Source of the DNA: Acidimicrobiia bacterium
Lineage (GTDB): Bacteria; Actinomycetota; Acidimicrobiia; Spongiisociales; ZC4RG35
Assembly: GCA_035544615.1 (NCBI GenBank)
Contig: DATKEA010000126.1
Span: 50 to 64,049 of the forward strand
Length of the DNA stretch: 64,000 nucleotides
Reading direction: 5' to 3'
Shown: positions 5,056 through 17,804 of the stretch, piece after piece
Layout of the letters: each line of letters starts with the position of its first letter
Numbering within the stretch: position 1 is the first letter of the stretch
Translations under genes and position numbers: made by a program
The notes under the pieces: model-generated
Told to the model about the DNA's origin: nothing
Databases searched by the model: none
The model's input: the letters and a program-made list of their open reading frames with translations, nothing else

Positions 5056-5454
5056 TCACATGTCTCGCTCTATCAGTGCTGCCCTTCGGCTGGCCGAGGC
5101 CAATCCACGATCGGTCGTGACGATCAACATGTCGAGCTGGCTGGCCAACTCGACGTAGAAGGCGTCGACCAGGCGCAGGTTTCCCCGCCTCCGCCACGCC
5201 CCGGTGAGTAACGGTGCAAGCGGGTGTCGGAAGATCGGTGACGATGCGACGAGGTTGACGCGCTCGGTCACTTGTCTTGTCGTCAGCTGACTGGCCCGAT
5301 GCAGCCTCCCAAGAGCGGAGAGGACCTCTGCGTCGAAATGCCCTGGAGCATGTAGCTCTGCGTTGTGCAGGTGTGCCTCGATCGACGCGGCGTGGTCAGA
5401 ACCAACGAGCAGGTCGACCATCGCCGAGGCGTCGAGAACGAGCGACTCAGCCAA
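5056..5454 (-). CDS. vapC: PIN-domain toxin (VapC type)
   Basis: LVLDASAMVDLL..., DAFYVELA and IVTTD acidic motifs are typical of PIN. It overlaps the upstream antitoxin gene by 8 nt. Confidence 0.85.
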   Translation of the reverse strand: MAESLVLDASAMVDLLVGSDHAASIEAHLHNAELHAPGHFDAEVLSALGRLHRASQLTTRQVTERVNLVASSPIFRHPLAPLLTGAWRRRGNLRLVDAFYVELASQLDMLIVTTDRGLASASRRAALIERDM

Positions 5455-5738: not shown

Positions 5739-6146
5739 CTACGGGTTGGTTCGGTAGTGGCGGACGGTCACACTAGGTAGATCTGCGAATGCTGACTCGT
5801 CGGCGGTGAGCACCATGCGCTTTGTGGCGCGAGCTGTGGCCGCGATGAGCAAGTCGTGCGCGCCGCGAGGATGCCCTGTCTGCCTTACCGCCACCAGAAG
5901 CTGAGCATGTTCGAAAGCGACATCCCGGTCATAGGAGATTATTGGAACCGAGGCGAGGATCTCGTCCACGTAAGCCTGTCGGTCGGCCTTGGCATGCGGG
6001 GATGCGAGTTCGACCCCCACGACCAATTCGGCGACTGTGATTGCCGCAATTGCTATGTCGTCGTCTTCGTGGATCAGATCGTCGAGATCGATGTCGCCTC
6101 GCTCGGCGTCGATCAGGAAAGTCGTGTCGAGAAGCACGACGCTCAT
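5739..6146 (-). CDS. vapC: PIN-domain toxin (VapC type), second pair
   Basis: VVLLDTTFLIDAERG..., AITVAELVVG and LIAATARA...VLTADESAF are PIN motifs. A 4-nt overlap links it to the antitoxin gene. Confidence 0.85.
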   Translation of the reverse strand: MSVVLLDTTFLIDAERGDIDLDDLIHEDDDIAIAAITVAELVVGVELASPHAKADRQAYVDEILASVPIISYDRDVAFEHAQLLVAVRQTGHPRGAHDLLIAATARATKRMVLTADESAFADLPSVTVRHYRTNP

Positions 6147-6385: not shown

Positions 6386-6431
6386 GAGATCAGATTATCA
6401 GATTTCACGATATGGGGGAGCTCATCCGACG

Positions 6432-6449
6432 ACGTGTCCCGTTTCCCTA
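6432..6449 (+). repeat. R6, family copy
   Basis: acgtgtcccgtttcccta. Confidence 0.85.
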
Positions 6450-6629
6450 ACGCCTTCTTGCTCGAACTGCGAGTGGCTGTTCACACGGCTGGCGTGCCTT
6501 TGAGCGGACCGCAGATGGAGACCCCAGCCGGGCACAAGACTTGAATTGGCTGCCCCGATAGCCGGAGGGATGACAAATGCGGCGGAGCGTGCGAGGAGCA
6601 ATCTCACGCAGGATCTGCTGTCGCGACCC

Positions 6630-9600
6630 CTAAAAAATGCAGAACCCGTTGATCTCGATGCTTGCGGAGCCGGATGCCCGACCGTCGTCGACCTGGAACA
6701 CGAAGACGTCGTCATTGCCCGCGTTTCCGGCGGTGTAGTCGACCGTCGCCTCGGTGTCCGAGATCTTCTCGATGGCGCTGAGGGTGCCGAATTCGGGTCC
6801 ATCGATGATGGTGAACTGGAGCGGGTCTCCGTCGGCATCCGACCCGGTGAGGGTGATCGGGACCGTGGAGTTGCAGCTGACCTGCGTCGACCCGGGGTTC
6901 GCTATCGGCACGGCGTTGACCGGGTTGATCTCGATGGTCACCTGGGCTGAGGTGGTGCCCCCATTGCCATCGACCACGGTGTAGTCGAAGCTGTCCGACG
7001 TGGTAGCCGAGTCGTCGTGGCTGTACAGCACCACGTCTCCCATGATCTCGACCGAGCCGTGGGCCGGTGCCGAGGCAGCCACGATCGTCAAGGGGTCGTC
7101 TTCGGGGTCACTGTCATTGGCGAGCACGGCGATTCGGACTTGACCACCCTCGTTCACCGTCTCTTGGTCGTCCACGGCAAGGGGGCGGTCGTTCACCGGC
7201 GAAACCTCTATGGTCACCGTGGCTTCGTTCGAAGTGGCCTCACCGTCGGAGACCTGGTAGGTGAACGAATCCTCGCTGGACTCCGAACCATTGTGCCTGT
7301 AGGTGATCGCACCATCTGGGTTCAGCGTCACATCTCCGTTCTCAGGGAGTCGCACGATCTCGATGTTCAGGTCGTCCGAGTCGGGGTCGGTGTCGTTCGC
7401 CAACACCGAGATGAGGACCGAGCTCCCTTCCGACACTGTCTCGAAATCATCGGCCGCGGTAGGCGGCCGGTTCTGCTGGATTGTGGTGGTGGATGAACTC
7501 TCGACGGTCGTCGTGGTGGCGCCGGCGGTTGTGGTGGGTGCATCGTCGAGGCGGACCCCGACGCCTGTCAACTCGATGGTCTCCTCTCCCTCATCGGTGG
7601 TGATGCGCAATTCGCCTTGTGCCTCGCGTCTCGTCTCGCCAAAGTCGAGAATCGGGGCGAAGGTGACCCATAGGGCGCACTCCGACTCTGGTTCGACCCG
7701 AATTCGGACGAGGGCATCAGCCGGCTCGACCTGCTCGAACCGGCACTCGGGGACCTCCGGACCGTCCGCGACCGGCTCGGATTCGATGGCGGGCTGACCT
7801 GGGGCGCTACAGATCGGCCCTTCAGGTGCGACGACGCAAAAAGCCGGATCCCCAACGATCTCGATCCGGTGGACCGTGAGCTCCTCTTCCTCGTTGCTGA
7901 AGGTCTGGTACCGGTGACTGACGCTTCCAGTGGCCACCTCACCAAAATCGAGAACCGCGCCGGCCTCGGTCGTCTGGGCCCAGACGCCGATCACCATCAC
8001 CGCCCCGGCCAGGACCGCCCATCTCCTCCAAGTCGTGGCGAAACCGCCGGTGTGACCAAGGTTATGGGTGCTGATCGCGGCCCCAGGCATGTCCGCTGCG
8101 CGGCGCCGCAAGCGGAGGGCCCCCCTGAGACTGCGGCGTGCCTCTCGCTTGTTGCCCAGCATCAGCTGGCGCGTGCCTGCTTCGTGAAGCGCCCAGGCTT
8201 CGGCGCCTTTCGCACCGAGAGACCGAGCCGACCTCAGCGCTTGGTTGGTCGCCACTCCCCATGAGTCCCAGGCTCCCATCACCGCAAGGTGGGGAGCCAA
8301 CGCCATGGCCAGCAGCAGCACCCCTCGATGCCGGTCGCGTTCGACGCCCCACTCGAGCACCCGCAGGATGAACGCCCGCGATTCCTCGAGGCGGCGTGGG
8401 GCCGCCTCAGCGATCCATTGCACAGTCACTTCGAAGATCTCGCCGCGAATCGCTTCGAGGTCGACCGCCTCGACGATGGGCAGGTATTCGACGCCGGCGA
8501 GACGGTGGGCGGGCCCGTCGCCTATGACGTGACCCGACATCATCAGCCCGGTCATCCGTTCGGCAGACACACCGAGCCGCATCATCATCTCGCCTGGTGT
8601 GGCCAGATCGGGCCCGAAGGCCGCCAGGATCCCAAGCACCCGGTGATCGTCTTCGCTCAGGTCGTTTCCTGGGTCAGCAGCCGTCTCCTGCTTCCTGCCG
8701 AGCCACCCGGCCAATGAGAGCCCGCTTCCCCACGCTTCGTGAGCCAGCTTGGTGATCATCCCTGGGCCCGTCCCGTCCCGTCGGCAGAGCGCCACAACAG
8801 CGTCGGCCAGCTCAGAGGGAACTTCCTGGCCATAGCGAGCCCCGAACAGGGCGACGATGTCGGCGGGCTTCTCGAAGTCGGTCAGCGGGACCGCCTTTGT
8901 ATAGGCGAGAGGGCCGAGGTCTCTCTCTTTTGCCTCGTCGGAGGTGAGAACGAACGTGGAGCCGGGCACGTCGGCACGTAGACGGTCGACCTCATCGGCG
9001 CGGAGTCGCACACCGTCGACGAACACCAGAGCCCTCCTCGCCTGGAGGTCTGCTCTCAGCGCGGCATCGTCTGGGACGAAGGTGTGGTCGGCGACCCGGT
9101 ACAGCTCCGACCACAATGCCCGAAGCAGATCCCCTGCCCGCGGCCACGCCTCGCCTTCGATGTAGACGCCGACTCCATCGGGGTAACGCTCGATTGAGGC
9201 GTTGGGATCGTGGGCGACTCGGCGCAGCACGGACGTCTTTCCGATTCCGGGGACCCCCGACACACCCAGCAAGGACTCACCGGACCCGATTGCAGCCTTG
9301 AGACGGTCGACTACGTCGTTGCGATCCACGAACGGGTCCGGAGGGCGTGGGCCGTTGCTTGCCTGCAGCGGATGCCGTCTCATCGGCGTCGCCCGTGCGG
9401 TCAGATCGAATCGGCCCCCGTACCGGCTTCCGGTGTAGGTGCGACCGTTGGTGCCCTGAACCCTGATCAATTCACCTTGGACCCGAGTGACGTCGTGGGA
9501 GACCAGCTGCCCTAGCTCTTCGGGGCTTCGGAAGCGTCGGATGGTCACCCCCTCCTCGACGTGGCCGATCCGGTTGAGGAACGCCGACAGCTCCGGCTCA

Positions 9601-9938
9601 CGTTGGGCGGCGATCTTCTCGTAGATCAGACAAGCGACTCCGCTTCGGCGGGCCGCGTCGAATTCGTCGACGGTGTAAGCACCCTGGGTTTTCCAGAACA
9701 AACCCAGGTACACGTCGCTGTTGTAGAGGGCGTCGAGATAGGTCTGACGGGGCGGACCGGGACCCGCTCCTGCATCCACCTCATACAGCCAGGGGGCGTA
9801 GCCTGCCGCGGCGAGTACATCGCGGACTGCGGCGCGCTCAGGGGCCAACTCGGACATGCGTGAGCTGATGAAGACCCGCAGCGCATCGGCGGCTGCCACC
9901 TGCCTTCTTTCGACCGCGGGCACCTCTACGGATGTCAT
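6630..9938 (-). CDS. DUF4062-like (TIR-like) + NB-ARC/STAND P-loop NTPase + TM helix + extracytoplasmic Ig-like and cadherin-like repeats
   Basis: - Start ATG 9938, with GGAG 9-12 nt upstream
- RVFISSRMSELAPERAAV head
- Walker A GVSGVPGIGKTS
- TM helix WRRWAVLAGAVMVIGVWA after an Arg-rich stretch
- Then LDFGEV... and three to four ANDTDPDSDD / VNDRP repeats. Confidence 0.8.
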   Translation of the reverse strand: MTSVEVPAVERRQVAAADALRVFISSRMSELAPERAAVRDVLAAAGYAPWLYEVDAGAGPGPPRQTYLDALYNSDVYLGLFWKTQGAYTVDEFDAARRSGVACLIYEKIAAQREPELSAFLNRIGHVEEGVTIRRFRSPEELGQLVSHDVTRVQGELIRVQGTNGRTYTGSRYGGRFDLTARATPMRRHPLQASNGPRPPDPFVDRNDVVDRLKAAIGSGESLLGVSGVPGIGKTSVLRRVAHDPNASIERYPDGVGVYIEGEAWPRAGDLLRALWSELYRVADHTFVPDDAALRADLQARRALVFVDGVRLRADEVDRLRADVPGSTFVLTSDEAKERDLGPLAYTKAVPLTDFEKPADIVALFGARYGQEVPSELADAVVALCRRDGTGPGMITKLAHEAWGSGLSLAGWLGRKQETAADPGNDLSEDDHRVLGILAAFGPDLATPGEMMMRLGVSAERMTGLMMSGHVIGDGPAHRLAGVEYLPIVEAVDLEAIRGEIFEVTVQWIAEAAPRRLEESRAFILRVLEWGVERDRHRGVLLLAMALAPHLAVMGAWDSWGVATNQALRSARSLGAKGAEAWALHEAGTRQLMLGNKREARRSLRGALRLRRRAADMPGAAISTHNLGHTGGFATTWRRWAVLAGAVMVIGVWAQTTEAGAVLDFGEVATGSVSHRYQTFSNEEEELTVHRIEIVGDPAFCVVAPEGPICSAPGQPAIESEPVADGPEVPECRFEQVEPADALVRIRVEPESECALWVTFAPILDFGETRREAQGELRITTDEGEETIELTGVGVRLDDAPTTTAGATTTTVESSSTTTIQQNRPPTAADDFETVSEGSSVLISVLANDTDPDSDDLNIEIVRLPENGDVTLNPDGAITYRHNGSESSEDSFTYQVSDGEATSNEATVTIEVSPVNDRPLAVDDQETVNEGGQVRIAVLANDSDPEDDPLTIVAASAPAHGSVEIMGDVVLYSHDDSATTSDSFDYTVVDGNGGTTSAQVTIEINPVNAVPIANPGSTQVSCNSTVPITLTGSDADGDPLQFTIIDGPEFGTLSAIEKISDTEATVDYTAGNAGNDDVFVFQVDDGRASGSASIEINGFCIF

Positions 9939-10465
9939 CTCGAGTGGCTCCGGTGCGCGAAGGGGCGTTTCGCTCTGCGCCCCAGGACGTTGTGTTTCGG
10001 AAGCGGATGCTTCTTGCCAGGGTCGTGACGACTCATGATCTCTCCCGGCGCCCCGTGCTCCGTCGGATGCGATTCCGTGGGGCCCCGCCTCTATGGCGAG
10101 GTCCCCAAACCTACGGTTTCTGAGACGACATGCATATAGGGGTTGTTCCCCCAATAGATGCCCAAAGGGGACGTGAGATACTCGTTTGTGGCGAGGGCGT
10201 GAGCGACGAGGAAGCCGACGACGTGGCCGCATGTCTGGCGGCGGCCGGGGGCCCGAGTCGCCCCCGAAAGTAGGTTGGTCGAATCGGACTGAGATCCTGG
10301 CTGAAACAAGGACTGGCCAGCCCGAAGATCTTCATCAGCTATCGCAGGAGCGATGCGGGGGGACATGCGGGCCGGCTTCAAGCCGCCCTGGCCGACTACT
10401 ACGGCGACGGGGCCGTCTGGCTGGATCACGCCGACATCGGCCCGGGACAGGGATTCGCCGAGGCG

Positions 10466-12340
10466 TTGGAAGAGGCGCTGACCCACAGTGACGTCCTGCT
10501 GGCGATCATCGGGCCCGACTGGCTGACCGCAGAAAAGGATGGTCGTCGGCGTCTCGACGACCCCGACGACTGGGTGAGACGTGAGCTGGTCACCGGTCTC
10601 GGTCTGGGACGGGTCCAGGTGATTCCGGTGCTGGTCGGCGAGGCCCCCCTGCCCGTGCCCGAAGAACTGCCCGAGCCGCTGCAACGCATCCCCGCGCTGC
10701 AGGCGATAACGGTGCGTCCCGATCGGTTCGAGGACGACGTCGACCATCTCACCGAGCGAATCGGGGGATGGCGTCGTCGATGGCACGGCTTTCCCCTCTG
10801 GATGTGGCTGCTGGGGGCGGCTCTGGTGATCGGAGGGCTCACCGCGGCCCTCGTGGTGAGAGGCAACCGGCCCCCGCTGGTCGCCACCGAACAGGTCTCG
10901 GCCATCGGCGGAGTCCAGACCGAGATCGACATCGCACCCTGGGTCACCGATGAGGACCCGGCCGGGCTCGTCTTCTCCCCCGCCAACGAGACGGCTCATG
11001 GCGGGACCGTCGTCGACCTGGGCGGGGGGAAGGTCATCTACACCGGCCCGGGGAGGTACAGCGGACCCGACTCGTTCCAATTCACGGTCAGCGACAAGCA
11101 GGGGGCGACAACGAGCGGGACCGTGAACGTGACGGTCAGCCTGGGCCAGATCGGTGGTGATTTCAACGTGGCGGTGGCGAAGTTCTCGGCCACCGACCAG
11201 AACTCCGGCGCCAGTCTCTCCGAGGCCCTGTTCGACCAGATCGCCATCACCCTCGACGATGTGACCGATGTGAACATCGAAGTGGCCGGGCCAGACGAGG
11301 TGGGAGACCTGGCCGGCGACACTCCCGAAAGCCGAGCCGAAGCCGCCGCCGACCTGGCCGATCGGGTCGGTGCAGACGTGGTGGTCTACGGGACCCTCGA
11401 GATCCTCGAAGGCCTGTCGAACCTGTCTGCGGAGTTCTACTTGTCGAGTCGGGGTCTGACCGGTGCCGAAGAGCTGGCCGGGGTCTACCCGCTCGACAGC
11501 GTGCAGCTTGCCACCACCGACCCGATCGCCTTGAGCCAGGCCGCCTCCCGCTTTCTCGAGCCGAAGATCATCGCCCTCACCGAACTCGCCATCGGGCTCA
11601 GCCACTACCAACTCAACGAATACGCCGAAGCTGAGGAGCTGTTCGCGGAGGCGGAGGCCTCCTGGCCTAGCTCGGCAGGTCGCATCAACGGGCGGGAGGT
11701 CGTCTTGAGTCTGCTCGGCAATGTCAGCGGTCTGCAGAACGACCTCGACGCCGCCGACGACTACTACACCCAGGCCCTCGATCTCGACCCCGAGTACTCC
11801 CAGGCCCGCTTCGGAGCGGCCGAGATGCGGTTCCTGCGATCGATGGGATCGCTCTGCGGAGGAACCGGGGAGGCAGACGTGGCCGGACTGGAAGATGCCA
11901 TCCGCCAGTTCGAGGAGCTGATCGACCTCCCTGCACCTCCCCTCGCCTTTCACCCCGAACGTGCCCGGCTGGAGATCGGACGGATCTACGCGTGCCTCAC
12001 ACAGAACGGCGTCGACCGCCGTGATGAGGCCAGAGAGATCATCGAAGCCGTCATCGCCGACATCTCCGGCGAGACCAGACTGCGCGACCTGGAGGCCGAG
12101 GCCCACTTCGCTCTCGGCGCCTACCACCTGCTGAACAGGGATCGGCCGGCGGCCCTCGCCGAGTTCAACACCGCGGTCGAAACCACGGTGAATCCCATCC
12201 GCAAGAGCGGCTTCTATCTCTCCCTGGCCGAAATCCATCTTTGTCTGCTCGACCAGTCCGACCTGGCCGAGACCTACCTCCGTGCGGCCGAAGACCTGGC
12301 CGGGGAGCCTATGGAACCGATCGTCTGCGCCGCACCGTGA
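10466..12340 (+). CDS. TIR domain + TM helix + cadherin-like domain + TPR repeats
   Basis: The tracked TTG 10466 cuts the TIR domain. The in-frame upstream sequence from 10325 reads KIFISYRRSDAGGHAGRLQAALADYY... A DDWVRRE motif and TM helix FPLWMWLLGAALVIGGLTAALVV follow. The true start is unresolved (see finding). Confidence 0.75.
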   Translation: MEEALTHSDVLLAIIGPDWLTAEKDGRRRLDDPDDWVRRELVTGLGLGRVQVIPVLVGEAPLPVPEELPEPLQRIPALQAITVRPDRFEDDVDHLTERIGGWRRRWHGFPLWMWLLGAALVIGGLTAALVVRGNRPPLVATEQVSAIGGVQTEIDIAPWVTDEDPAGLVFSPANETAHGGTVVDLGGGKVIYTGPGRYSGPDSFQFTVSDKQGATTSGTVNVTVSLGQIGGDFNVAVAKFSATDQNSGASLSEALFDQIAITLDDVTDVNIEVAGPDEVGDLAGDTPESRAEAAADLADRVGADVVVYGTLEILEGLSNLSAEFYLSSRGLTGAEELAGVYPLDSVQLATTDPIALSQAASRFLEPKIIALTELAIGLSHYQLNEYAEAEELFAEAEASWPSSAGRINGREVVLSLLGNVSGLQNDLDAADDYYTQALDLDPEYSQARFGAAEMRFLRSMGSLCGGTGEADVAGLEDAIRQFEELIDLPAPPLAFHPERARLEIGRIYACLTQNGVDRRDEAREIIEAVIADISGETRLRDLEAEAHFALGAYHLLNRDRPAALAEFNTAVETTVNPIRKSGFYLSLAEIHLCLLDQSDLAETYLRAAEDLAGEPMEPIVCAAP

Positions 12341-12355
12341 CGAGGCGTATGGTTG

Positions 12356-13345
12356 ATGGCCAATCGGCGAGGAGAGTCGGGGATGAACCATTCTGCCGCA
12401 GCCACAGCGATCGCGCTCCTCTTGGTTGTCGCCTGCGGTGGTGACGCCGGGTCTACCACCACCTCCTCAGCGACCACCTCGACCAGCGTGCCCGGGACAT
12501 CGACTTCGACAGAGGCGGGTTCGACGACACAGCCGCCGACCACCCTCGACGGGACGGGCACCACCGGCACAACCGGCACCCCGGACACATTGCCGCCCGT
12601 CGTCGCCCAGGTCGCGTTTGCCTTCGCCGCGGGTGATGACCCGCGCCTGCTGGTTCGGGTGTCGGTGGGAGAGACTCCTGACGGTCCCTGGTCACCGGCC
12701 GGCAACTCCGATCCGACCCCGACGCTCTCCGGGCCGTCCTATTGGGTCCGTTTCGAGATCACAAATGTCGACCGACTCAATGCGGTGCTGACGGACCTCG
12801 ACATCTCCGGTTTCGAGGTCGGCTCGCCCCTCGGCGGAGATGTGTGTGAGCTCGATGCCCCGCTCCCGAAGGACGGCGAGGCGACATGCATCGCTGGCGG
12901 GTCGGATGGATTCCCGGTGCAGCCGGGACCCAATGACGTCGACTTCAACGTGTCAGGCGTCGGTCCTAGGCAGGGTGAGCCCGAGCGGTGGTTCGACCCG
13001 CCGGTCCCGACGAGTCTGGAGTTCACCGGCGCTCGGAACCGCTTCGTGCTGGTGTTCGACACGACCGAAGGAATACGGGTCGACGGCACTGCCGACTCCT
13101 CTCAATTCGAGATCGACATCGGAGGCCTGTCCGGAACCGTGAGCGTGGATTGCTCTGGGGGGAGCCCCTTTGGTGGGACACCTGGGCTGAAGGCGTATGT
13201 GATCGAGAACTACTCGGCCTCTGGGGACCGGGTAGGGGGATGCTCGGAGATACCCAGCGCGGTATTCGACTTCTTTGCCGACTTCGACAGCGACGAGGTC
13301 TATTTCTACGAAGGCGCCGTCACCGGCACCACCTCTGGCGGCTGA
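12356..13345 (+). CDS. secreted lipoprotein of unknown function
   Basis: Signal peptide with lipobox LLLVVAC-GG, then a Thr/Ser-rich linker. The start could be 12353, 12356 or 12383. Confidence 0.7.
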   Translation: MANRRGESGMNHSAAATAIALLLVVACGGDAGSTTTSSATTSTSVPGTSTSTEAGSTTQPPTTLDGTGTTGTTGTPDTLPPVVAQVAFAFAAGDDPRLLVRVSVGETPDGPWSPAGNSDPTPTLSGPSYWVRFEITNVDRLNAVLTDLDISGFEVGSPLGGDVCELDAPLPKDGEATCIAGGSDGFPVQPGPNDVDFNVSGVGPRQGEPERWFDPPVPTSLEFTGARNRFVLVFDTTEGIRVDGTADSSQFEIDIGGLSGTVSVDCSGGSPFGGTPGLKAYVIENYSASGDRVGGCSEIPSAVFDFFADFDSDEVYFYEGAVTGTTSGG

Positions 13346-13398
13346 GGCATCACGCCGGGGTCTCGAGCGCGTAGCCTCGGCACCGGAAAGGGGACTCG

Positions 13399-14370
13399 AT
13401 GGGCCACATCACTTTCGTTCACGGCATCATGAACCAACCGTCGACGGATCGGCTGCTCGCCATCTGGAGGAGGGACTTGGCGGACGGGGGCGACGGTGTC
13501 GATCTCGACGTCTACGGGGTCACCTCGTCGATGGTCTACTGGGCCGACGTCATGTACCCCGCAGCCACCGACGCCGGTGGCCCGGGCCAGGAGTCGATCG
13601 AATACGAGGGGATCGAGCCCGGCGCCCTCACCGAGGTCGACGAGTCCTACATCGACGACGCCGACGGTGCCGAGAGAGAATTCCTCGAGTCGATGATCGA
13701 AAGCTACGACCTCGACCACCCCGACGAGCCCGAAGGAGCCGAGGCAGGCCCTCCCGATCAGGCGGCCTCACCGTCGCCGGGCGCCGAGGCCAGGATGGCT
13801 GCAGCATCAGCCCTCGAGGCGGTTCCCCTCCCGTGGTTCATCAAACGACCCCTGATGAAGGTCCTGCTCCGCGACGTCCACCACTATCTGTTCAACACCA
13901 GTCACTCCCCGCGATCCGGCTCCACCTACAAGGTGCGCGACGAGGTGAGAAACCGGTTCGTTGGCGACCTGGCCGCGGTCGAGGACGGACCTCACATCGT
14001 GGTGGCACACAGTCTCGGCACGGTGGTCGCCTACGACTGCCTCAAACGGGTGGCGGACACCAAGAAAGTCGACATGCTCATCACCCTCGGCACCCCCCTC
14101 GGCATGTCCGAGATCCAGCACAATATGCGCCCAGAATGGTCTAAGGACGATGGATATCCCGACGGTCTGTCCCACTGGGTGAACGTGGCCGACACCATCG
14201 ACCCGGTCTGTGTCGCCGATCCGTTCATCGCCAACGACTACAAACGCAAGAAGGCCAGTGCGGTGAAAGACGAGACGGTGAACAACGGCGGGCTGTTCCG
14301 CCATCCGTCCGGCAAGTACTTCCGCCAGTCGGTGGTCCAGGAGGCGGTGCGAAGAGGGCTCGGTCTTTGA
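13399..14370 (+). CDS. alpha/beta-hydrolase (lipase/esterase-like), cytosolic
   Basis: GGAAAGGGGA RBS. ITFVHGI oxyanion-hole HG motif and VVAHSLGT nucleophile elbow (GxSxG). No signal peptide. Confidence 0.7.
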   Translation: MGHITFVHGIMNQPSTDRLLAIWRRDLADGGDGVDLDVYGVTSSMVYWADVMYPAATDAGGPGQESIEYEGIEPGALTEVDESYIDDADGAEREFLESMIESYDLDHPDEPEGAEAGPPDQAASPSPGAEARMAAASALEAVPLPWFIKRPLMKVLLRDVHHYLFNTSHSPRSGSTYKVRDEVRNRFVGDLAAVEDGPHIVVAHSLGTVVAYDCLKRVADTKKVDMLITLGTPLGMSEIQHNMRPEWSKDDGYPDGLSHWVNVADTIDPVCVADPFIANDYKRKKASAVKDETVNNGGLFRHPSGKYFRQSVVQEAVRRGLGL

Positions 14371-14373
14371 GGG

Positions 14374-15942
14374 ATGTCGTTTCTCGACTCCCCACTCGGT
14401 GAGCGGCTGACCGCAAGCCTCGACGCCGGCAAGCCCGATGACATCACAGCGGCCGTCGCCGAGATAGAGGCCAAGATCTGGAGCGGTGCGCTCGACTCGA
14501 TCCAGATCGACGAAGTGCTGGAGACGTTGCAGCGACACCGCCAGTTTCCTCACGTGATCACGATCGCCGACGCCGCGACCGCGGTGGATTCCATCACCAG
14601 CGCCGGTCGTCGTCGTTATTGCCAGATCCTCATCGAATCCGGCGCCCTGCATGCGGCCGAGCTCGCCTGCAGAGAGCTGCTCGAGGTGGCCGACAGCGCC
14701 ACAGAGCGAGGGGAGGCGCTCGGGCTCCTGGGGCGAATTTGCAAGCAGCGATTCGTCATCGGGGGCAGACCCGAGGACTTGTTGGCCGCCATCGACGCCT
14801 ACCGCTTCGCCTACGAGGGCGGCACCGATCGGGCCTGGCACGGGATCAACCTGTTGGCGCTCACCTGCCGCGCCGCCCGGGAGGGAATTACGGTGCCCAA
14901 TGCGGTCGACACCCGCTCCCTGACCACAACCATTCTCGCGGAGGTGAGAAAGACCGACCCCGAGGTACGCCAGGTCTGGCACCGTGCCACCGAGATCGAG
15001 GCACTTCTCGCTTCGGGAGACGATCCGAGTGCGCTCGACGAAGCGGTTGTCGCCGCAGGACAACTCGCCGCCAGTCGCAGTGTCCGCGCCTTCGAGTTGG
15101 AAAGCCTGCGCCGGCAATTGACCGACATCTGGCAACTGGAGTCGCATCACCCCCTCCTCGTCGCCATCGCCGATCAGAAGCTGCATCTCGGCGGCAGGGC
15201 GGATGTCGAGCTGCCCGAGTCGCCCCAGCAACTGGAGAAGATCTTCGGGACCGCGCTACCCGTGGGATACAAACATCTGATGCGGGGTCTGCACTGCGCC
15301 GAGTCGGTGGCCAAGATCACCGATGCCTCGGGTGAGCCCTGGGGCACCGGATTCCTGGTGGCAGGGAGTCTGATCCACCCCGACTTCGGGGAGGCACCGG
15401 TCCTGGTGACCAATGCCCATGTCTGCAGCCCCGAGCCGGGAGTGGGCAAGCTCCTTCCCGGCGAGGCCCGTGCCGTGTTCGATGTGACCAAGGCGGTTGA
15501 CGGGTCGGGTCTGGTCCTCACCGGCTTCGAGTGTCTTTGGAGCTCGCCGCCGGGCACCTGTGATGTGACGTTTCTCCGCTTGTCGGGGCCCGGGGCCGTC
15601 ATCACCCAGCCGATCGAGGTCGCCCAGATTCCCCAGCCCGTCACCGAGGGCGCCTATGTGTACGTCATCGGACATCCGGCCGGCGGGGGGCTCAAGTTCT
15701 CGATCCGGGGCAACGACCTTCTCGCTTACGACGCCGAGATGTTCAAGGTGCACTACACCGCCCCCACCGAGGGGGGCAGCTCTGGAAGCCCGGTGTTCAA
15801 CCAGGCATGGCAGCTGATGGCGGTGCATCATGCCGGAGACTCCAAGATGCGCCGTCTTGACGACCCCTCGGCCACCTATCAGGCCAACGAGGGGATAACG
15901 ATCAAGTCGATCAGAGAGGAGTACGAGCGCAGTGGACGATGA
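14374..15942 (+). CDS. N-terminal TPR-like (DUF4071/TRAFs-binding-like) domain fused to a trypsin-like serine protease
   Basis: GLLGRICKQRF...AIDAYRFAY...WHGINLLAL resembles DUF4071. The C-terminus has GTGFLV...LVTNAHV (His) and TEGGSSGSPVF (Ser). The start is 4 nt after the upstream stop. Confidence 0.8.
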   Translation: MSFLDSPLGERLTASLDAGKPDDITAAVAEIEAKIWSGALDSIQIDEVLETLQRHRQFPHVITIADAATAVDSITSAGRRRYCQILIESGALHAAELACRELLEVADSATERGEALGLLGRICKQRFVIGGRPEDLLAAIDAYRFAYEGGTDRAWHGINLLALTCRAAREGITVPNAVDTRSLTTTILAEVRKTDPEVRQVWHRATEIEALLASGDDPSALDEAVVAAGQLAASRSVRAFELESLRRQLTDIWQLESHHPLLVAIADQKLHLGGRADVELPESPQQLEKIFGTALPVGYKHLMRGLHCAESVAKITDASGEPWGTGFLVAGSLIHPDFGEAPVLVTNAHVCSPEPGVGKLLPGEARAVFDVTKAVDGSGLVLTGFECLWSSPPGTCDVTFLRLSGPGAVITQPIEVAQIPQPVTEGAYVYVIGHPAGGGLKFSIRGNDLLAYDAEMFKVHYTAPTEGGSSGSPVFNQAWQLMAVHHAGDSKMRRLDDPSATYQANEGITIKSIREEYERSGR

Positions 15943-16982
15943 CGCCATCGCCGCCGCGCTCCTCGCGACCCGCGCCACGTAGAGAAAGGACACCTGCGAT
16001 CCGGGTCTTCCTGAGCTACCGGAGGGACGACACGGCAGGACGTGCCGGCCGGCTTCACGATGCGCTGGCGGCACGCCTGGGAGCGCGCAACGTGTTCATG
16101 GATGTTGCGACCATCGCGGTCGGCACCGATTTCGCCGACCAGGTGGATCGGGCGATCGACAACAGCGAAGCGTCGTTGATAGTGATCGGGCGGAATTGGC
16201 TTCGGCTCCAAGATGCTGCTGGAAACCGGCGTCTCGACGACCCGCGAGACCACGTCAGATCCGAGGTGCGCACTGCCCCGAAGTCGAACCACCCGGTGGT
16301 GCCGGTCCTGGTGGACGAGGCAGCGCTGCCATCAGAAGCGGAGCTTCCAGAGGATCTTGTCTCGTTGGCTCGCCGTCAGGCCGTCGAGCTGCACGACGAG
16401 ACCTGGGCCCAGGACGTGGAGATGCTGATCCGCCGTCTCGAAGGCAAGGACGTGGTCGCTTCGCGCCGTCGTCTCCCCCCCTTGGCCATCGGGTTCGTCG
16501 TGTTGGCCATCGCTGGCGTCGCGGCCTGGCGTGGGCTGGCAGGCACAGACGACGGTGCAACGCCGAGATGCGAGTCGGACCCAAACGTATCGCTGACCAC
16601 CCTGGAGGTCGGGCCCGAAGCCACCGCGATGGACAACTCCGGCGACAGATCGATCCGTTACACCGTGTCAGGAGCAGACTTCACAGCTTCGGGATCGCAT
16701 TGGCTGGTGGTCCTCGAGGTCGAGGCCTCCAATGAGACTACGGCGAGCGGCAACCAGCAAGGCCTCTACTTCAGTACTTCTTCATTCCAGGCGCTGCTGG
16801 TCGATGGCTTTGCCGCCGAGCCCGCGTGCTTCACGCCGATCGCAGGCAATCGCGACAGTGTCGACCCCGGTCAAACAGCGAGCGGCCTGGTGGGATTCGA
16901 GACGACCAGAGACCCAACGGACTCAGTTCTGATTCTGGGGACGGAGGGCGGCCAGATGATCGAGGTCACCGGCGGCTCGTGA
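15939..16982 (+). CDS. TIR domain + TM helix + extracytoplasmic beta-rich domain
   Basis: IRVFLSYRRDDTAGRAGRLHDALAARLG...VFMD and a DHVRSE motif. TM helix LPPLAIGFVVLAIAGVAAW follows. ATGA overlap with the protease gene. Confidence 0.8.
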   Translation: MTPSPPRSSRPAPRRERTPAIRVFLSYRRDDTAGRAGRLHDALAARLGARNVFMDVATIAVGTDFADQVDRAIDNSEASLIVIGRNWLRLQDAAGNRRLDDPRDHVRSEVRTAPKSNHPVVPVLVDEAALPSEAELPEDLVSLARRQAVELHDETWAQDVEMLIRRLEGKDVVASRRRLPPLAIGFVVLAIAGVAAWRGLAGTDDGATPRCESDPNVSLTTLEVGPEATAMDNSGDRSIRYTVSGADFTASGSHWLVVLEVEASNETTASGNQQGLYFSTSSFQALLVDGFAAEPACFTPIAGNRDSVDPGQTASGLVGFETTRDPTDSVLILGTEGGQMIEVTGGS

Positions 16983-16990
16983 CGAATCAC

Positions 16991-17020
16991 CGGATCCTCG
17001 CCATCGCCGACGAGGATCCG
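16991..17020 (+). other. perfect 10-bp inverted repeat (cggatcctcg N10 cgaggatccg) between the TIR and SLOG-like genes
   Basis: Read directly. It lies 9 nt after the stop at 16982 and 22 nt before the GTG at 17043. Possible attenuator or processing hairpin. Confidence 0.4.
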
Positions 17021-17042
17021 CATGGCCCGGTAGGCTCCCTCG

Positions 17043-17588
17043 GTGGCGGTGGTCCTGTTCTCGGGTCACATGGTGGATGCACCCAACCGCATTCAACCTC
17101 GCTTCCCACCAGAGCGGGTAGCCCAGGTCCGACGCGATATCGCCGGTGAGCTCTGGCTAATCGACGACCCCGATGCCAGGGCGATTTCGGGCTTGGCCTG
17201 CGGAGGCGACCTGTTGTTCGCTGAGGAATGGCTGAAGACCGGCCGAGTACTACAGGCCTTTCTTCCCCGCCCGGTAGAAGAGTTCCTGGACGAGTCGGTG
17301 CGTTTTGCCGGCGAGGAGTGGGTCACGTCGTTCCACCGGGTGGTCACCCACGTGATGGTGAGTGTGGTCGGCCCTGACGACGAAATGCTCCGCCTGGAAG
17401 ACCCACATACCGCCAACAACCTCCGAATGCTCGAGTCCGCCCGCCGGCAGGGCGGATCGATTCACGGTGTGTTCCTCTGGGACGGCAGCGGTGGTGACGG
17501 ACCCGGTGGCACTCAACAGCTCGTCTCCGATGTGCTCGAGGCAGGCGGAAGTGTCACCATTCTCGATCCCAACCCCAGAGGCGGGTGA
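17043..17588 (+). CDS. small Rossmann-like protein, possibly SLOG/LOG/DprA-like nucleotide-binding
   Basis: GTG start forced by an in-frame TAG at 17031. VVLFSGHMVD..., SGLACGGDLLFAEEWL and GGDGPGGTQQLV resemble the GGxGxD and PGGxGT motifs of the SLOG/LOG superfamily. Assignment is tentative. Confidence 0.55.
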   Translation: MAVVLFSGHMVDAPNRIQPRFPPERVAQVRRDIAGELWLIDDPDARAISGLACGGDLLFAEEWLKTGRVLQAFLPRPVEEFLDESVRFAGEEWVTSFHRVVTHVMVSVVGPDDEMLRLEDPHTANNLRMLESARRQGGSIHGVFLWDGSGGDGPGGTQQLVSDVLEAGGSVTILDPNPRGG

Positions 17589-17644
17589 TCCGCGGCGATT
17601 GGCTTGTCGCCGGGATCGGTTTAGCGGACCCAGGGAGATCTTCC

Positions 17645-17660
17645 GGTTCCCGTTTCCCTA
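17645..17660 (+). repeat. R7, family copy with partial right arm
   Basis: ggttcccgtttcccta + ttgcgcgcttgcactcccag. Confidence 0.85.
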
Positions 17661-17804
17661 TTGCGCGCTTGCACTCCCAGAAGCTGTGGGCTGTCAGGTC
17701 ACGGTCGGTTCATGGGTGCCGGGTGGGCTGGCACGGGAGACCAGACCAGGGCACTCGCCAGCACCACCCATAAAGGAAAGGCAACCTACCGAAGCGCCTC
17801 GTCA

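What the first reader, a model, noticed from the sequence alone, without database searches (positions are those of the whole stretch)
6630..16982. Toll-like-receptor-like topology: three single-pass proteins with cytosolic TIR-like heads and extracytoplasmic adhesin-like tails
In all three proteins the TIR or DUF4062-like domain is N-terminal and is followed by an Arg-rich stretch and one hydrophobic helix:
- WRRWAVLAGAVMVIGVWA
- FPLWMWLLGAALVIGGLTAALVV
- LPPLAIGFVVLAIAGVAAW

The C-terminal part is then of a secreted type. It consists of cadherin-like ANDxDxDxD/VND repeats in 6630-9938 and 10466-12340, and a beta-rich domain in 15939-16982.

By the positive-inside rule the TIR-like heads face the cytosol and the repeats face outward. 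This is the arrangement of animal TLRs (ectodomain, TM, TIR). It implies outside-in sensing of surface contact, phage adsorption or cell-cell contact rather than cytosolic sensing.

A related cadherin-like module also heads the metallophosphoesterase at 24546-25820 in the adjacent polysaccharide locus.
Basis: inference. Interest (0 to 1): 0.7.

Follow-up and report, generated by a model that had tools for sequence, protein, structure and literature searches.

The report
Membrane-anchored bacterial TIR receptor-like proteins
An aquatic actinobacterium (class Acidimicrobiia) has a gene cluster in which NAD-cleaving TIR immune domains are tied through one membrane helix to domains outside the cell, next to a protease that probably reads the TIR signal, so bacteria may have their own form of receptor-style TIR signalling.

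Summary
The core observation holds, with corrections.

**The three proteins**
- A (6630-9938, minus strand), B and C (15939-16982) each have a cytosolic N-terminal head, one membrane helix and a tail of exported type.
- The helix and the positive-inside charge bias are kept in all 69 C relatives. In the 40 B relatives the helix is kept in all and the bias in 39.
- The conserved, even-numbered cysteines lie after the helix.

**Corrections**
- B starts at 10289 (CTG), not 10466, so its TIR is complete.
- B's tail is one Ig-like domain, an alpha/beta domain and about 260 aa of TPR.
- A carries about 550 aa of STAND-type NTPase and helical repeats between DUF4062 and the helix.

**What the parts look like**
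- The TIRs of B and C are SARM1-like, with the catalytic Glu invariant.
- Gene T joins a TPR-S domain, a predicted sensor of TIR-made signals, to a trypsin-like protease.
- H is a lipase-like hydrolase. In a proteobacterial locus H and T are fused, beside a TIR-TM-Ig-PASTA gene.

**Reading**
- This is best read as a Thoeris-like TIR signalling system whose TIR proteins are membrane receptors.
- Outside-in sensing is plausible but unproven.
- The likeness to Toll-like receptors is convergent, because the chain order is reversed and the TIR is enzymatic.
- I rate it a new variant of a known kind.

The parts
6630..9938 (-). Gene A, 1102 aa. Domains: DUF4062 (9609-9878), P-loop STAND-type NTPase (about 8679-9341), TPR-like helical region (8043-8678), membrane helix (7965-8030), Ig-like beta-sandwich with 4 Cys (7554-7961), Thr-rich linker (7473-7553), three Big_9/cadherin-like repeats (6633-7472).
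   Evidence: Pfam and NCBIfam. Walker motifs and coordinates. The helix is conserved in 15 relatives. Relatives keep the cytosolic part but swap the tails for Flg_new_2, ASH+SH3_3 or PASTA.
10289..12340 (+). Gene B, 683 aa, with a corrected start (CTG). Domains: TIR (10325-10768, Glu99 in WVRRE), membrane helix (10790-10864), Big_9 Ig-like domain (10877-11146), alpha/beta domain (11156-11512), TPR superhelix with 4 conserved Cys (11522-12304).
   Evidence: start. (Pfam). (AlphaFold2 model, pLDDT 84). (SARM1 TIR, E about 1e-11 to 1e-12). (conservation, charge bias).
12353..13345 (+). Gene L. Lipoprotein with a signal peptide and lipobox (LLLVVAC), a Thr/Ser-rich linker and a beta-rich domain. 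It is the conserved partner of B.
   Evidence: Translation and hydropathy. Found beside B in L007 (60% identity) and L008 (33%) by tblastn. L009 has a 317-aa gene in the same position. L011 has an L homolog at 58% identity.
13399..14370 (+). Gene H. Cytosolic alpha/beta hydrolase of lipase/LCAT/PGAP1 type, with nucleophile Ser205 in HSLGT.
   Evidence: Weak Pfam hits to Abhydrolase_6, PGAP1 and LCAT. 77% identical in L001, L007 and L011. Fused to TPR-S-Trypsin_2 in L015.
14374..15942 (+). Gene T. TPR-S domain (14581-14862) plus a Trypsin_2 serine protease (15343-15825), with His349 and Ser470 present.
   Evidence: Pfam TPR-S 53.9 bits and Trypsin_2 57.6 bits, both above their cut-offs. Weak matches to S1B proteases in the PDB. 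Lies within one gene upstream of a C-type gene in L001, L003, L007, L009 and L011.
15939..16982 (+). Gene C, 347 aa. Domains: TIR (16002-16442, Glu109 in HVRSE), membrane helix (16473-16538), beta-sandwich ectodomain with invariant Cys211 and Cys297 (16563-16979). Its start overlaps T's stop (ATGA).
   Evidence: Pfam. AlphaFold2 model, pLDDT 88. Foldseek to SARM1 TIR, target-normalised TM-score 0.82-0.86. Glu aligned with SARM1 DWVHKE. Ectodomain resembles DUF4352/DUF5067 proteins. Family statistics.
17043..17588 (+). Gene D, 181 aa, with no known domain. It is the conserved downstream partner of C. Its membership of the system is inferred from neighbourhood only.
   Evidence: tblastn: 68-70% identity directly after C in L001, L007 and L011, and a 37% homolog near TIR-TM-PASTA in L013. 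No Pfam, NCBIfam or PDB hit.

Best explanation
The cluster is best read as a TIR-based signalling and cell-suicide system of the Thoeris kind, in which the TIR proteins are single-pass membrane receptors.

**Shown from sequence, models and comparison**
- B and C are type II membrane proteins: an N-terminal cytosolic SARM1-like TIR with the catalytic Glu intact, one membrane helix, and a disulfide-type extracytoplasmic tail.
  - B's tail is Ig-like, then alpha/beta, then TPR.
  - C's tail is a DUF4352-like beta-sandwich.
- A has the same layout with a DUF4062 head, followed by a STAND-type NTPase and helical repeats, before the helix.
- T combines TPR-S with an intact trypsin-like protease.
- H is a lipase-like hydrolase.
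- The set TIR-TM-ectodomain + hydrolase + TPR-S + protease (trypsin or CHAT) recurs across phyla, and in some loci the last three are fused into one protein.

**Inferred**
1. A ligand or a disturbance at the cell surface clusters the ectodomains. In relatives with PASTA tails this would most simply be cell-wall fragments or cell-wall damage. For B it may involve the lipoprotein L.
2. Clustering brings the TIR domains together. TIR NADases are known to need self-association for activity.
3. The TIRs then turn NAD+ into an ADP-ribose-derived signal.
4. The signal binds TPR-S and switches on the protease T.
5. The protease, together with the hydrolase H, kills or arrests the cell.

**Rough confidence by step**

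| Step | Confidence |
|---|---|
| Topology | 0.9 |
| TIR-to-TPR-S-protease coupling | 0.6 |
| Trigger comes from outside the cell | 0.4 |
For: **Topology**
- conserved helix and positive-inside bias.
- in B and C, cysteines only after the helix; even numbers after the helix in A too.
- models show TIR, helix, then folded tail.
- DUF4352/DUF5067-like ectodomain in C.

**Enzymatic TIR**
- SARM1 is the best solved match, and Glu aligns with SARM1's DWVHKE. By my recollection that Glu is the catalytic E642.
- The Glu is invariant in 69 C relatives and nearly invariant in 40 B relatives.

**Coupling to T and H**
- TPR-S is above the Pfam cut-off in T.
- The same TPR type is reported in the type VIII Thoeris effector ThsI. 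It is proposed there to perceive cADPR, and the paper says Burroughs and Aravind had predicted that it takes part in TIR signalling (bioRxiv 10.64898/2025.12.03.692087).
- A C-type TIR gene has a protease gene within one gene of it in L001, L003, L007, L009, L011 (Trypsin_2) and L002, L004 (CHAT); in L005 a patatin gene lies between them.
- L015 fuses hydrolase + TPR-S + Trypsin_2 next to TIR-TM-Ig-PASTA.
- L013 has TIR-TM-PASTAx5 next to hydrolase + CHAT + TPR-S.

**Generality of the receptor layout**
- 57 of 93 single-TIR representatives among the closest relatives are TIR, one helix, then a tail. 54 of those 57 are positive-inside.
- 26 of 35 genome loci in six or more phyla have the same layout.
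- Tails include PASTA, Ig-like, PDZ, Sel1, glucosaminidase and amidase_2.

**Sensor-like divergence**
- The cytosolic domains are more conserved than the ectodomains. In C, TIR is 58% identical against 32% for the ectodomain. In B, TIR is 68% against 44% for the Ig domain.
- A relatives swap whole tails.
Against: - There is no experiment of any kind. No topology predictor such as DeepTMHMM was available.
- A's hydrophobic core is short (15 aa) in the window protein.
- PADLOC finds no known defence system here, only weak ThsB-like hits for C.
- The B+L pair occurs alone among housekeeping genes in a 4.16-Mb contig (L008), and an A relative occurs alone in L010. The parts may therefore not form one machine, or may not be immune.
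- TPR repeats outside the cell are unusual, though NlpI-type periplasmic TPR proteins exist.
- The TPR-S-to-signal link rests on one preprint's proposal and on gene neighbourhood.
- Nothing shows that a single helix transmits a signal rather than simply tethering the TIR.
Confidence: 0.55

Rival explanations
1. Tether-and-release or localisation model. The helix and tail only hold the TIR at the membrane or cell wall, and may keep it from self-assembling. The trigger is cytosolic or membrane-proximal, for example phage DNA entry. Activation could even come from the neighbouring trypsin-like protease cutting the Arg-rich juxtamembrane linker, which would free the TIR to form NAD-depleting filaments.
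For: - The juxtamembrane stretch is Arg-rich (SRRRL in C, GGWRRRW in B, TWRRW in A).
- T belongs to Pfam's trypsin-like family. Classical trypsin cuts after Arg/Lys, but T's own specificity is unknown; its closest solved relatives are S1B SplB and glutamyl endopeptidases, at weak E-values.
- An amoeba TIR (TirC) is tolerated only while held by a membrane helix, and its authors speculate about proteolytic release (PMC13142454).
- Many tails are cell-wall-binding modules (PASTA, amidase_2, glucosaminidase), which could serve as anchors.
Against: - The positive-inside rule alone explains the Arg-rich stretch.
- Simple anchors would not need large, diverse, fast-changing, disulfide-bonded ectodomains or whole-tail swapping.
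- TPR-S on the protease points to the protease lying downstream of a small-molecule signal, not upstream of the TIR.
Confidence: 0.22
2. This is envelope-homeostasis signalling, not immunity. These proteins would be the TIR counterparts of PASTA Ser/Thr kinases. They would report cell-wall state or growth cues by making NAD-derived second messengers that regulate proteolysis and lipid turnover, without cell suicide.
For: - PASTA is the most frequent annotated tail among relatives: 11 of 78 and 5 of 31.
- PASTA kinases have the same layout, and their PASTA domains bind muropeptides (PMC5786024 abstract).
- B+L sits among housekeeping genes in L008.
- Peptidase_M15_4 + PG_binding_1 genes sit inside the cluster in L001, L007 and L009.
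Against: - The partners (CHAT or caspase, trypsin, patatin or lipase, extra TIRs, STAND NTPases) are typical of conflict systems (PMC7159879).
- The window and L009 clusters lie beside PIN, CcdA and PemK toxin genes.
- Presence is patchy, with partial deletions such as B+L lost in L001. That pattern fits accessory defence genes.
Confidence: 0.18
3. The hydrophobic segments are not membrane-spanning, or the orientation is inverted, so the three proteins are soluble or have TIR outside the cell.
For: - A's hydrophobic core is only 15 residues.
- Model confidence over the helices is modest, with pLDDT about 55-77.
Against: - Every relative keeps an uncharged run of at least 18 residues at this position while the sequence drifts.
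- The charge bias is near-universal.
- There is no N-terminal signal sequence.
- NAD+, the TIR substrate, is cytosolic.
- Relatives carry PASTA after the helix.
Confidence: 0.05

Closest known systems
Thoeris TIR signalling systems, especially type VIII (TIR + TPR-containing ThsI) and type IV (TIR + caspase-like protease)
   Same: - A TIR protein with a catalytic Glu lies next to an effector that carries a putative signal-binding domain.
- T has the TPR-S domain, and ThsI has a TPR of the type that Aravind and colleagues predicted for TIR signalling.
- Sister loci pair the same TIR family with CHAT or caspase proteases, as type IV does.
   Different: - In the papers read here I found no Thoeris TIR (ThsB) described with a membrane helix or an ectodomain. 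Here the TIR proteins are single-pass membrane proteins with ectodomains.
- The effector is a trypsin-like protease plus a lipase-like hydrolase.
- PADLOC gives only weak ThsB-like hits.
- No defence or signal data exist.
Animal Toll-like and IL-1 receptors
   Same: One membrane helix separates an outside ligand-binding part from a cytosolic TIR. Activation by clustering of TIRs would work the same way.
   Different: - The chain order is reversed (type II here, type I in animals).
- There is no signal peptide and there are no LRRs.
- The TIR is SARM1-like and probably enzymatic, not a scaffold for adaptor proteins.
- The resemblance is convergent, with no sign of common descent for the whole architecture.
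SARM1 TIR domain (NAD+ hydrolase)
   Same: It is the best solved match by sequence profile (E about 1e-9 to 1e-12) and by fold (target-normalised TM-score 0.82-0.86). The catalytic Glu aligns.
   Different: SARM1 is regulated by ARM and SAM domains in the cytosol. It has no ectodomain.
Bacterial PASTA Ser/Thr kinases (PknB, PrkC, StkP)
   Same: They have the same type II layout: a cytosolic catalytic domain, one helix and extracellular sensor repeats. Relatives of B and C, and of A's NTPase, carry PASTA tails.
   Different: The output domain is a TIR or a STAND NTPase, not a kinase. The window proteins themselves have Big_9, TPR or DUF4352-like tails, not PASTA.
Bacterial STAND/NLR-like defence proteins (Avs, bNACHT), and the membrane-proximal conflict systems of Kaur et al. 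2020
   Same: - A has an N-terminal effector-type domain, a P-loop STAND-type NTPase and helical repeats.
- Bacterial NACHT proteins with C-terminal membrane helices are a noted category (bioRxiv 10.1101/2022.07.19.500537).
- Helix-plus-cadherin tails are noted in GAP1-N2 systems (PMC7159879).
   Different: - A's NTPase is NB-ARC/AAA_16-like, not NACHT.
- Its tail is a large Ig/cadherin-like ectodomain.
- None of these papers, as far as I read them, describes DUF4062-STAND-TM-ectodomain or TIR-TM-ectodomain proteins.

Membership tests
Toll-like receptor / IL-1 receptor family | Cytosolic TIR-fold domain | tested here: met
   TIR_2 is above the Pfam cut-off in C (51.5 bits). B's complete TIR was recovered after the start correction. 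Fold match to TIR structures.
Toll-like receptor / IL-1 receptor family | Type I orientation: signal peptide, N-terminal ectodomain, C-terminal TIR | tested here: not met
   TIR is N-terminal, there is no N-terminal hydrophobic signal, and the ectodomain is C-terminal.
Toll-like receptor / IL-1 receptor family | LRR (TLR) or Ig (IL-1R) ectodomain | tested here: not met
   No LRR hit in Pfam. The tails are Big_9/cadherin-like, TPR and a DUF4352-like sandwich. Ig-like folds are present but are not of the IL-1R type.
Thoeris-type TIR signalling system | TIR protein with the catalytic glutamate | tested here: met
   Glu109 of C aligns with the Glu of SARM1's DWVHKE and is invariant in 69 relatives. 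B's WVRRE Glu99 is nearly invariant in 40 relatives.
Thoeris-type TIR signalling system | Effector gene next to the TIR gene, carrying a signal-binding domain | tested here: met
   T has TPR-S (53.9 bits against a cut-off of 27.6) plus Trypsin_2. Adjacency is conserved in five or more loci, and recurs in two proteobacterial loci with fused forms.
Thoeris-type TIR signalling system | Match to curated defence-system models | tested here: inconclusive
   PADLOC gives only weak ThsB-like hits for C (E 6e-7) and none for A, B, L or H. NCBIfam ThcB4 scores 34-37 bits against a cut-off of 220.
Thoeris-type TIR signalling system | Infection-dependent production of an ADPR-derived signal, and phage defence | not testable with these tools
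   This needs biochemistry and phage assays.
STAND NTPase (protein A) | Walker A and Walker B motifs of a P-loop NTPase | tested here: met
   GVPGIGKT at aa 228 and LVFVDG at aa 304. Both regions are conserved in 15 relatives.
STAND NTPase (protein A) | Profile match to a STAND family (NB-ARC, AAA_16 or NACHT) | tested here: inconclusive
   AAA_16 scores 24.7 bits, below the cut-off of 32.6. More distant hits of the same region carry NB-ARC PF00931.
TIR-like status of DUF4062 (protein A head) | Detectable homology to TIR | tested here: inconclusive
   Default profile-profile comparison finds nothing. A relaxed hhalign run gives a full-length alignment to C's TIR at probability 52%, with the conserved Glu92 aligned to the catalytic Glu.
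Bacterial cadherin-like / Big_9 domains | Profile match above the curated cut-off | tested here: met
   A: Big_9 167.5 bits, Cadherin_4 147.8, Cadherin_5 90.2. B: Big_9 46.9 and Cadherin_5 33.5.
DUF4352-type extracellular Ig-like domain (C ectodomain) | Sequence or fold match | tested here: inconclusive
   No Pfam hit even at E up to 5. Foldseek finds DUF4352 and DUF5067 phage proteins and phage lipoproteins (E 1e-5 to 1e-3, target-normalised TM-score up to 0.48).

The most novel reading that the evidence does not exclude
Bacteria have true receptor-type TIR immunity. A widespread family of single-pass proteins, found in Actinomycetota, Proteobacteria, Acidobacteriota and other phyla, would detect events outside the cell with swappable ectodomains. 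Candidate events are phage adsorption, cell-wall cleavage by phage or rival enzymes, or contact with another cell. The ectodomains seen are PASTA, Ig/cadherin-like, TPR and DUF4352-like. Clustering of the ectodomains would switch on a cytosolic SARM1-like TIR. The TIR's NAD-derived product would then activate TPR-S-bearing proteases and lipases. This would be an independent invention of the TLR principle. It would also be a rare case of a bacterial immune sensor that reads the outside of the cell.
Probability: 0.3. Interest if true: 0.85.

Novelty: new variant of a known kind. Interest (0 to 1): 0.62.

Why it matters
- **Where sensing happens.** To my knowledge, the phage sensors characterised so far act in the cytosol or at the membrane. 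How TIR proteins of Thoeris-type systems perceive infection is largely open.
- **A testable case.** A large family of TIR enzymes wired through one helix to exported ligand-binding domains would allow direct tests of surface-level sensing: swap or dimerise the ectodomain, then measure NAD-derived products.
- **Effector link.** The data tie the TPR-S domain to proteases and lipase-like hydrolases in a conserved, sometimes fused, effector. That extends the known range of TIR-signal effectors.
- **Evolution.** The TLR-style layout (outside sensor, one helix, cytosolic TIR) would have arisen independently in bacteria, using the SARM1-like enzymatic branch of TIRs.
- **If the tails are only anchors.** Membrane-tethered NADases beside proteases would still be a useful model for protease-released TIR activation.

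Tried and rejected
**Searches that gave little or nothing**
1. PADLOC scan of the six cluster proteins: no known system, only weak ThsB-like hits.
2. Pfam at relaxed thresholds on C's ectodomain, B's alpha/beta domain, L and D: nothing useful.
3. PDB sequence searches: D gave nothing. H gave only a marginal thioesterase hit.
4. A first PDB alignment request failed because the E-value threshold was too tight.
5. Foldseek against the PDB was dominated by the TIR hits for C and by the TPR hits for B, so the other domains could not be classified that way. Only the viral library exposed the DUF4352-like match for C.
6. I guessed by eye that B's alpha/beta domain is TolB-N/LpoB-like. This could not be tested.
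7. The promoter and terminator scan of 6400-17900 was uninformative.

**DUF4062 against TIR**
- The default profile-profile comparison found only the helix region.
- A relaxed run gave a weak full-length alignment. I treat this as inconclusive.

**Readings rejected**
- A second membrane helix in A at aa 539-557. The stretch between it and the real helix has 15 K/R, and NB-ARC-TM-PASTA relatives share the same single-helix layout.
- A polymorphic-toxin or contact-dependent-inhibition reading. The TIR is N-terminal and cytosolic, not a C-terminal exported toxin.
- A functional link to the neighbouring polysaccharide locus through the Big_9 metallophosphoesterase. Big_9 is a common exported module, and related clusters lie in other neighbourhoods.

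**Literature**
- The paper that defined TPR-S (Burroughs and Aravind 2020, J Bacteriol) is not held in the library. Its content is taken second-hand and from memory of its abstract.
- Searches for bacterial TIR-TM-ectodomain or TIR-PASTA proteins found no description. This is absence within one library, not proof of novelty.

Full report
**1. What is in the sequence**

The window has about 65% G+C. Its closest relatives are metagenome-assembled Acidimicrobiia, including Ilumatobacteraceae.

Codon-position G+C picks out one gene on the minus strand, A (6630-9938). Divergent from it lies a co-directional, tightly packed run on the plus strand:

| Gene | Coordinates |
|---|---|
| B | 10289-12340 |
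| L | 12353-13345 |
| H | 13399-14370 |
| T | 14374-15942 |
| C | 15939-16982 |
| D | 17043-17588 |

- Gaps between the plus-strand genes are 12, 53 and 3 bp, then a 4-bp overlap (ATGA), then about 60 bp.
- Upstream are two PIN toxin genes and an Rrf2 regulator gene. Downstream is a polysaccharide locus.

**2. Check of the observation**

Domain hits (Pfam and NCBIfam):
- A has DUF4062 (aa 21-86), a weak AAA_16 hit (aa 204-320) and three Big_9/Cadherin_4/5 repeats (aa 823-1100).
- C has TIR_2 (aa 23-163).

B's start:
- The frame is open from 10274 and encodes KIFISYRRSD from 10325, but there is no ATG, GTG or TTG before 10466.
- The 85%-identical homolog P0122 begins MRSWLKQG at the position of the window's CTG at 10289.
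- B therefore has a complete TIR and most likely starts at that CTG, which is a rare start codon. A start-codon substitution or a sequencing error are the alternatives.

Membrane helices:
- Hydropathy finds one strong segment in B and one in C, and a short 15-residue core in A. H and T have none.
- Family data make this solid:

| Family | Uncharged run of at least 18 aa at the aligned position | K/R, N-side against C-side | Members with the bias |
|---|---|---|---|
| C | 69 of 69 | 5.0 against 0.84 | 69 of 69 |
| B | 40 of 40 | 5.0 against 1.8 | 39 of 40 |

- In the 15 A relatives the segment stays hydrophobic while its sequence changes. More distant members have more than 20 hydrophobic residues there.
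- A's other hydrophobic stretch (aa 539-557) is a helix of the TPR-like region. The stretch from it to the real helix holds 15 K/R, which would be strongly disfavoured outside the cell.

Evidence that the tails are outside:
- B has exactly four cysteines and C exactly two. All lie after the helix, and all are invariant or nearly so.
- A has six cysteines after the helix and two before it.
- A's tail has a Thr-rich linker like that of the lipoprotein L.
- The AlphaFold2 model of C (pLDDT 88) shows TIR 23-167, a low-confidence linker, helix 182-200 and a beta-sandwich 220-342.
- The model of B (pLDDT 84) shows TIR, helix 170-190, an Ig-like domain, an alpha/beta domain (292-407) and a TPR superhelix (412-671).
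- C's ectodomain matches DUF4352 and DUF5067 domains and phage lipoproteins by fold. It has no Pfam hit.

So the core observation is right.
- mis-set B's start;
- overlooked about 550 aa of NTPase and helical repeats in A;
- described B's tail as cadherin-like repeats, although it has one Big_9 domain and is mostly an alpha/beta domain and TPR repeats.

**3. What the heads are**

- Profiles of the B and C families hit the SARM1 TIR best among solved structures, at E about 1e-9 to 1e-12.
- The C model superposes on SARM1 TIR with a target-normalised TM-score of 0.82-0.86.
- The family motif D-x-V-R-x-E aligns with SARM1's DWVHKE. From memory, the Glu in that motif is the catalytic E642.
- This Glu is invariant in the C family and nearly invariant in the B family. 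These are therefore probably active NAD+-processing TIRs, not scaffolds.
- A's DUF4062 could not be tied firmly to TIR. The default comparison found nothing. A relaxed hhalign run gave a full-length alignment with the conserved Glu in register, at 52% probability.
- A's middle part has Walker A and Walker B motifs, and more distant hits of that region carry NB-ARC. A is thus an NLR-like protein (effector head, STAND-type NTPase, helical repeats) that continues through a helix into an ectodomain.

**4. The rest of the cluster and its conservation**

- T has TPR-S (53.9 bits) plus an intact trypsin-like protease.
- H is a lipase/LCAT/PGAP1-like alpha/beta hydrolase with the motif HSLGT.
- L is a lipoprotein.
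- D has no known domain.

| Locus | Gene order |
|---|---|
| L009 | A, then divergently B L H T [M15 peptidase + PG_binding] C (C-type TIR gene called as a 198-aa fragment) |
| L007 | B L H T [M15 peptidase + PG_binding] C D |
| L001 | H T [M15 peptidase + PG_binding] C D, with only 30 codons of B left |
| L011 | L H T C D |
| L008 | B L alone |

- More distant C relatives sit beside or close to CHAT proteases (in L004 with a weak TPR-S hit), patatin, other TIR genes or a STAND gene.
- The enzymes H and T are 74-77% identical between loci where B, C and L are 54-60% identical.
- Within B and C the TIR is better conserved than the ectodomain.
- A relatives keep the cytosolic part and swap whole tails: Big_9, Flg_new_2 repeats, ASH plus SH3.

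**5. How general the layout is**

- C's TIR has 32,591 relatives at E up to 0.001 in the 50%-identity cluster library.
- Among the best 144 representatives, 93 have a single TIR. Of these, 57 are N-terminal TIR, one helix, then a tail of at least 60 aa. 54 of those 57 are positive-inside.
- Annotated tails include PASTA (11 of 78), ASH/HYDIN Ig-like, PDZ, Sel1, glucosaminidase and DUF4333.
- B's TIR also hits TIR-TM-PASTA, TIR-TM-amidase_2, TIR-TM-PDZ and TIR-TM-CHASE2 proteins. A's NTPase hits NB-ARC-TM-PASTA proteins.
- A scan of one genome per species returned 35 loci from Acidimicrobiia, Beta- and Gammaproteobacteria, Acidobacteriota, Phycisphaerae, Gemmatimonas, Chloroflexota and Solirubrobacterales. 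In 26 of them the TIR is followed by a hydrophobic segment and a tail of 88-514 aa.

Two proteobacterial loci are especially telling:
- L015 has a 934-aa fusion of alpha/beta hydrolase, TPR-S and Trypsin_2, which equals H plus T. It lies 1.5 kb from a TIR-TM-Ig-PASTA gene and next to a caspase gene and a hydrolase-CHAT gene.
- L013 has a D homolog, a TIR gene, a TIR-TM-PASTAx5 gene and a 1780-aa hydrolase-CHAT-TPR-S protein.

The association of membrane TIR with hydrolase, TPR-S and protease is therefore conserved across phyla, and in some loci it is fused into one chain.

**6. Mechanism**

According to a 2025 preprint:
- The type VIII Thoeris effector ThsI carries a TPR domain that may perceive the TIR product cADPR.
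- Aravind and colleagues had predicted that this TPR type takes part in TIR signalling (bioRxiv 10.64898/2025.12.03.692087).
- Type IV Thoeris pairs a TIR with a caspase-like protease.

Pfam's name for the domain in T (Tetratricopeptide Repeats-Sensor) fits this. On that basis the best-supported reading is a Thoeris-like pathway:
1. The membrane TIRs (B, C) make an NAD-derived signal.
2. TPR-S on T reads the signal.
3. T's protease, with the lipase-like H, executes the response.

The step from outside to inside is inferred. TIR NADases need self-association (established knowledge for SARM1 and for plant and bacterial TIRs), so ligand-driven clustering of single-pass receptors is a natural switch. 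PASTA tails in relatives point to cell-wall fragments or cell-wall damage as one class of cue. The fast-changing tails fit a sensor under diversifying pressure.

The rival readings are:
- a tether or release model, in which the helix restrains the TIR and a protease frees it (compare the amoeba TirC, PMC13142454);
- a non-immune envelope-signalling role, like that of PASTA kinases;
- a non-membrane or inverted topology, which the data make unlikely.

**7. Comparison with what is known, and novelty**

- Operon logic: closest to Thoeris.
- TIR type: closest to SARM1.
- Architecture: closest to PASTA kinases.
- In/out layout: convergent on TLR and IL-1R, but with reversed chain order and no LRRs.
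- Bacterial NACHT proteins with C-terminal membrane helices, and helix-plus-cadherin tails in GAP1-N2 systems, have been noted before.
- My searches of the held library found no description of bacterial TIR-TM-ectodomain or TIR-PASTA proteins. The library is incomplete, and the key TPR-S paper could not be read.
- I therefore rate this as a new variant of a known kind.
- It is of real interest because the family is large, cross-phylum and directly testable. The interest is tempered because the sensing direction and the immune role are inferences only.

Noticed in passing
window 10274-10466: B's complete TIR is encoded in frame, but there is no ATG, GTG or TTG before 10466. Homolog P0122 starts at the position of the CTG at 10289. 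Many database relatives (624 aa) are mis-called from the same internal TTG, and many C relatives (about 293-298 aa) are mis-called from an internal Met, so the TIR goes unannotated in public records.
   Followed up: yes
window 17043-17588: Gene D (181 aa) is conserved directly after C (L001, L007, L011), and a 37% homolog sits near a TIR-TM-PASTA gene in Sulfuricella (L013). It has no Pfam, NCBIfam or PDB hit. By eye the motif GLACGGDLLFAEEWL..GRVLQAFLP looks SLOG/DprA-like, which would fit a nucleotide-signal role. This was not tested.
   Followed up: partly
L015:5694-8498 (minus strand) and L013:13026-18368: These are Rosetta-stone fusions. L015 has alpha/beta hydrolase + TPR-S + Trypsin_2 in one 934-aa protein. 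L013 has hydrolase (DUF7379/LCAT-like) + CHAT + TPR-S in one 1780-aa protein. Both lie beside TIR-TM-PASTA genes in Proteobacteria. The pairing of a lipase-like fold with TIR signalling recalls the plant EDS1 family, but this is an analogy only.
   Followed up: partly
L001:9080-9892, L007:15494-16306, L009:3198-4013: A Peptidase_M15_4 + PG_binding_1 gene (a cell-wall peptidase) sits between T and C in three related clusters. It is absent from the window, where T's stop overlaps C's start.
   Followed up: no
L001:6393-6482; L007:12967-13912: There are signs of decay or turnover in related clusters. L001 keeps only the first 30 codons of B directly upstream of H, with B and L deleted. The H homolog in L007 is split by a frameshift near aa 207.
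   Followed up: partly
L008:10001-13133: In a 4.16-Mb contig the B+L pair stands alone among housekeeping genes (gatCAB, ligA, mnmA), with no T, H or C nearby. B and L may work as a separate module.
   Followed up: no
window 9609-9878 (A head) and B/A juxtamembrane regions: A and B share a Trp-Arg-Arg-(Arg)-Trp motif at the cytosolic face of the helix (TWRRW in A, GGWRRRW in B). B's GGW.R..G....W core is invariant or nearly invariant across its 40 relatives. That is more conservation than a plain anchor would need.
   Followed up: no
proteins P0294-P0336: The highest-scoring relatives of C's TIR are mostly soluble proteins with two tandem TIR domains (about 45 of the best 144 representatives; six further multi-TIR proteins have hydrophobic segments). 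A covalent TIR pair may be the soluble counterpart of receptor clustering.
   Followed up: no
window 5056-5454 and 5739-6146 (minus strand); L009:13649-21598: PIN toxin genes flank A in the window. The related island in L009 also carries PIN, CcdA, PemK, a TIR+CBS gene and two dynamin-like GTPase genes. This setting looks like a defence or toxin-antitoxin island.
   Followed up: no
An SLH-domain protein lies nearby. Both look like ordinary envelope proteins of the polysaccharide locus, with no evident link to the TIR cluster.
   Followed up: partly
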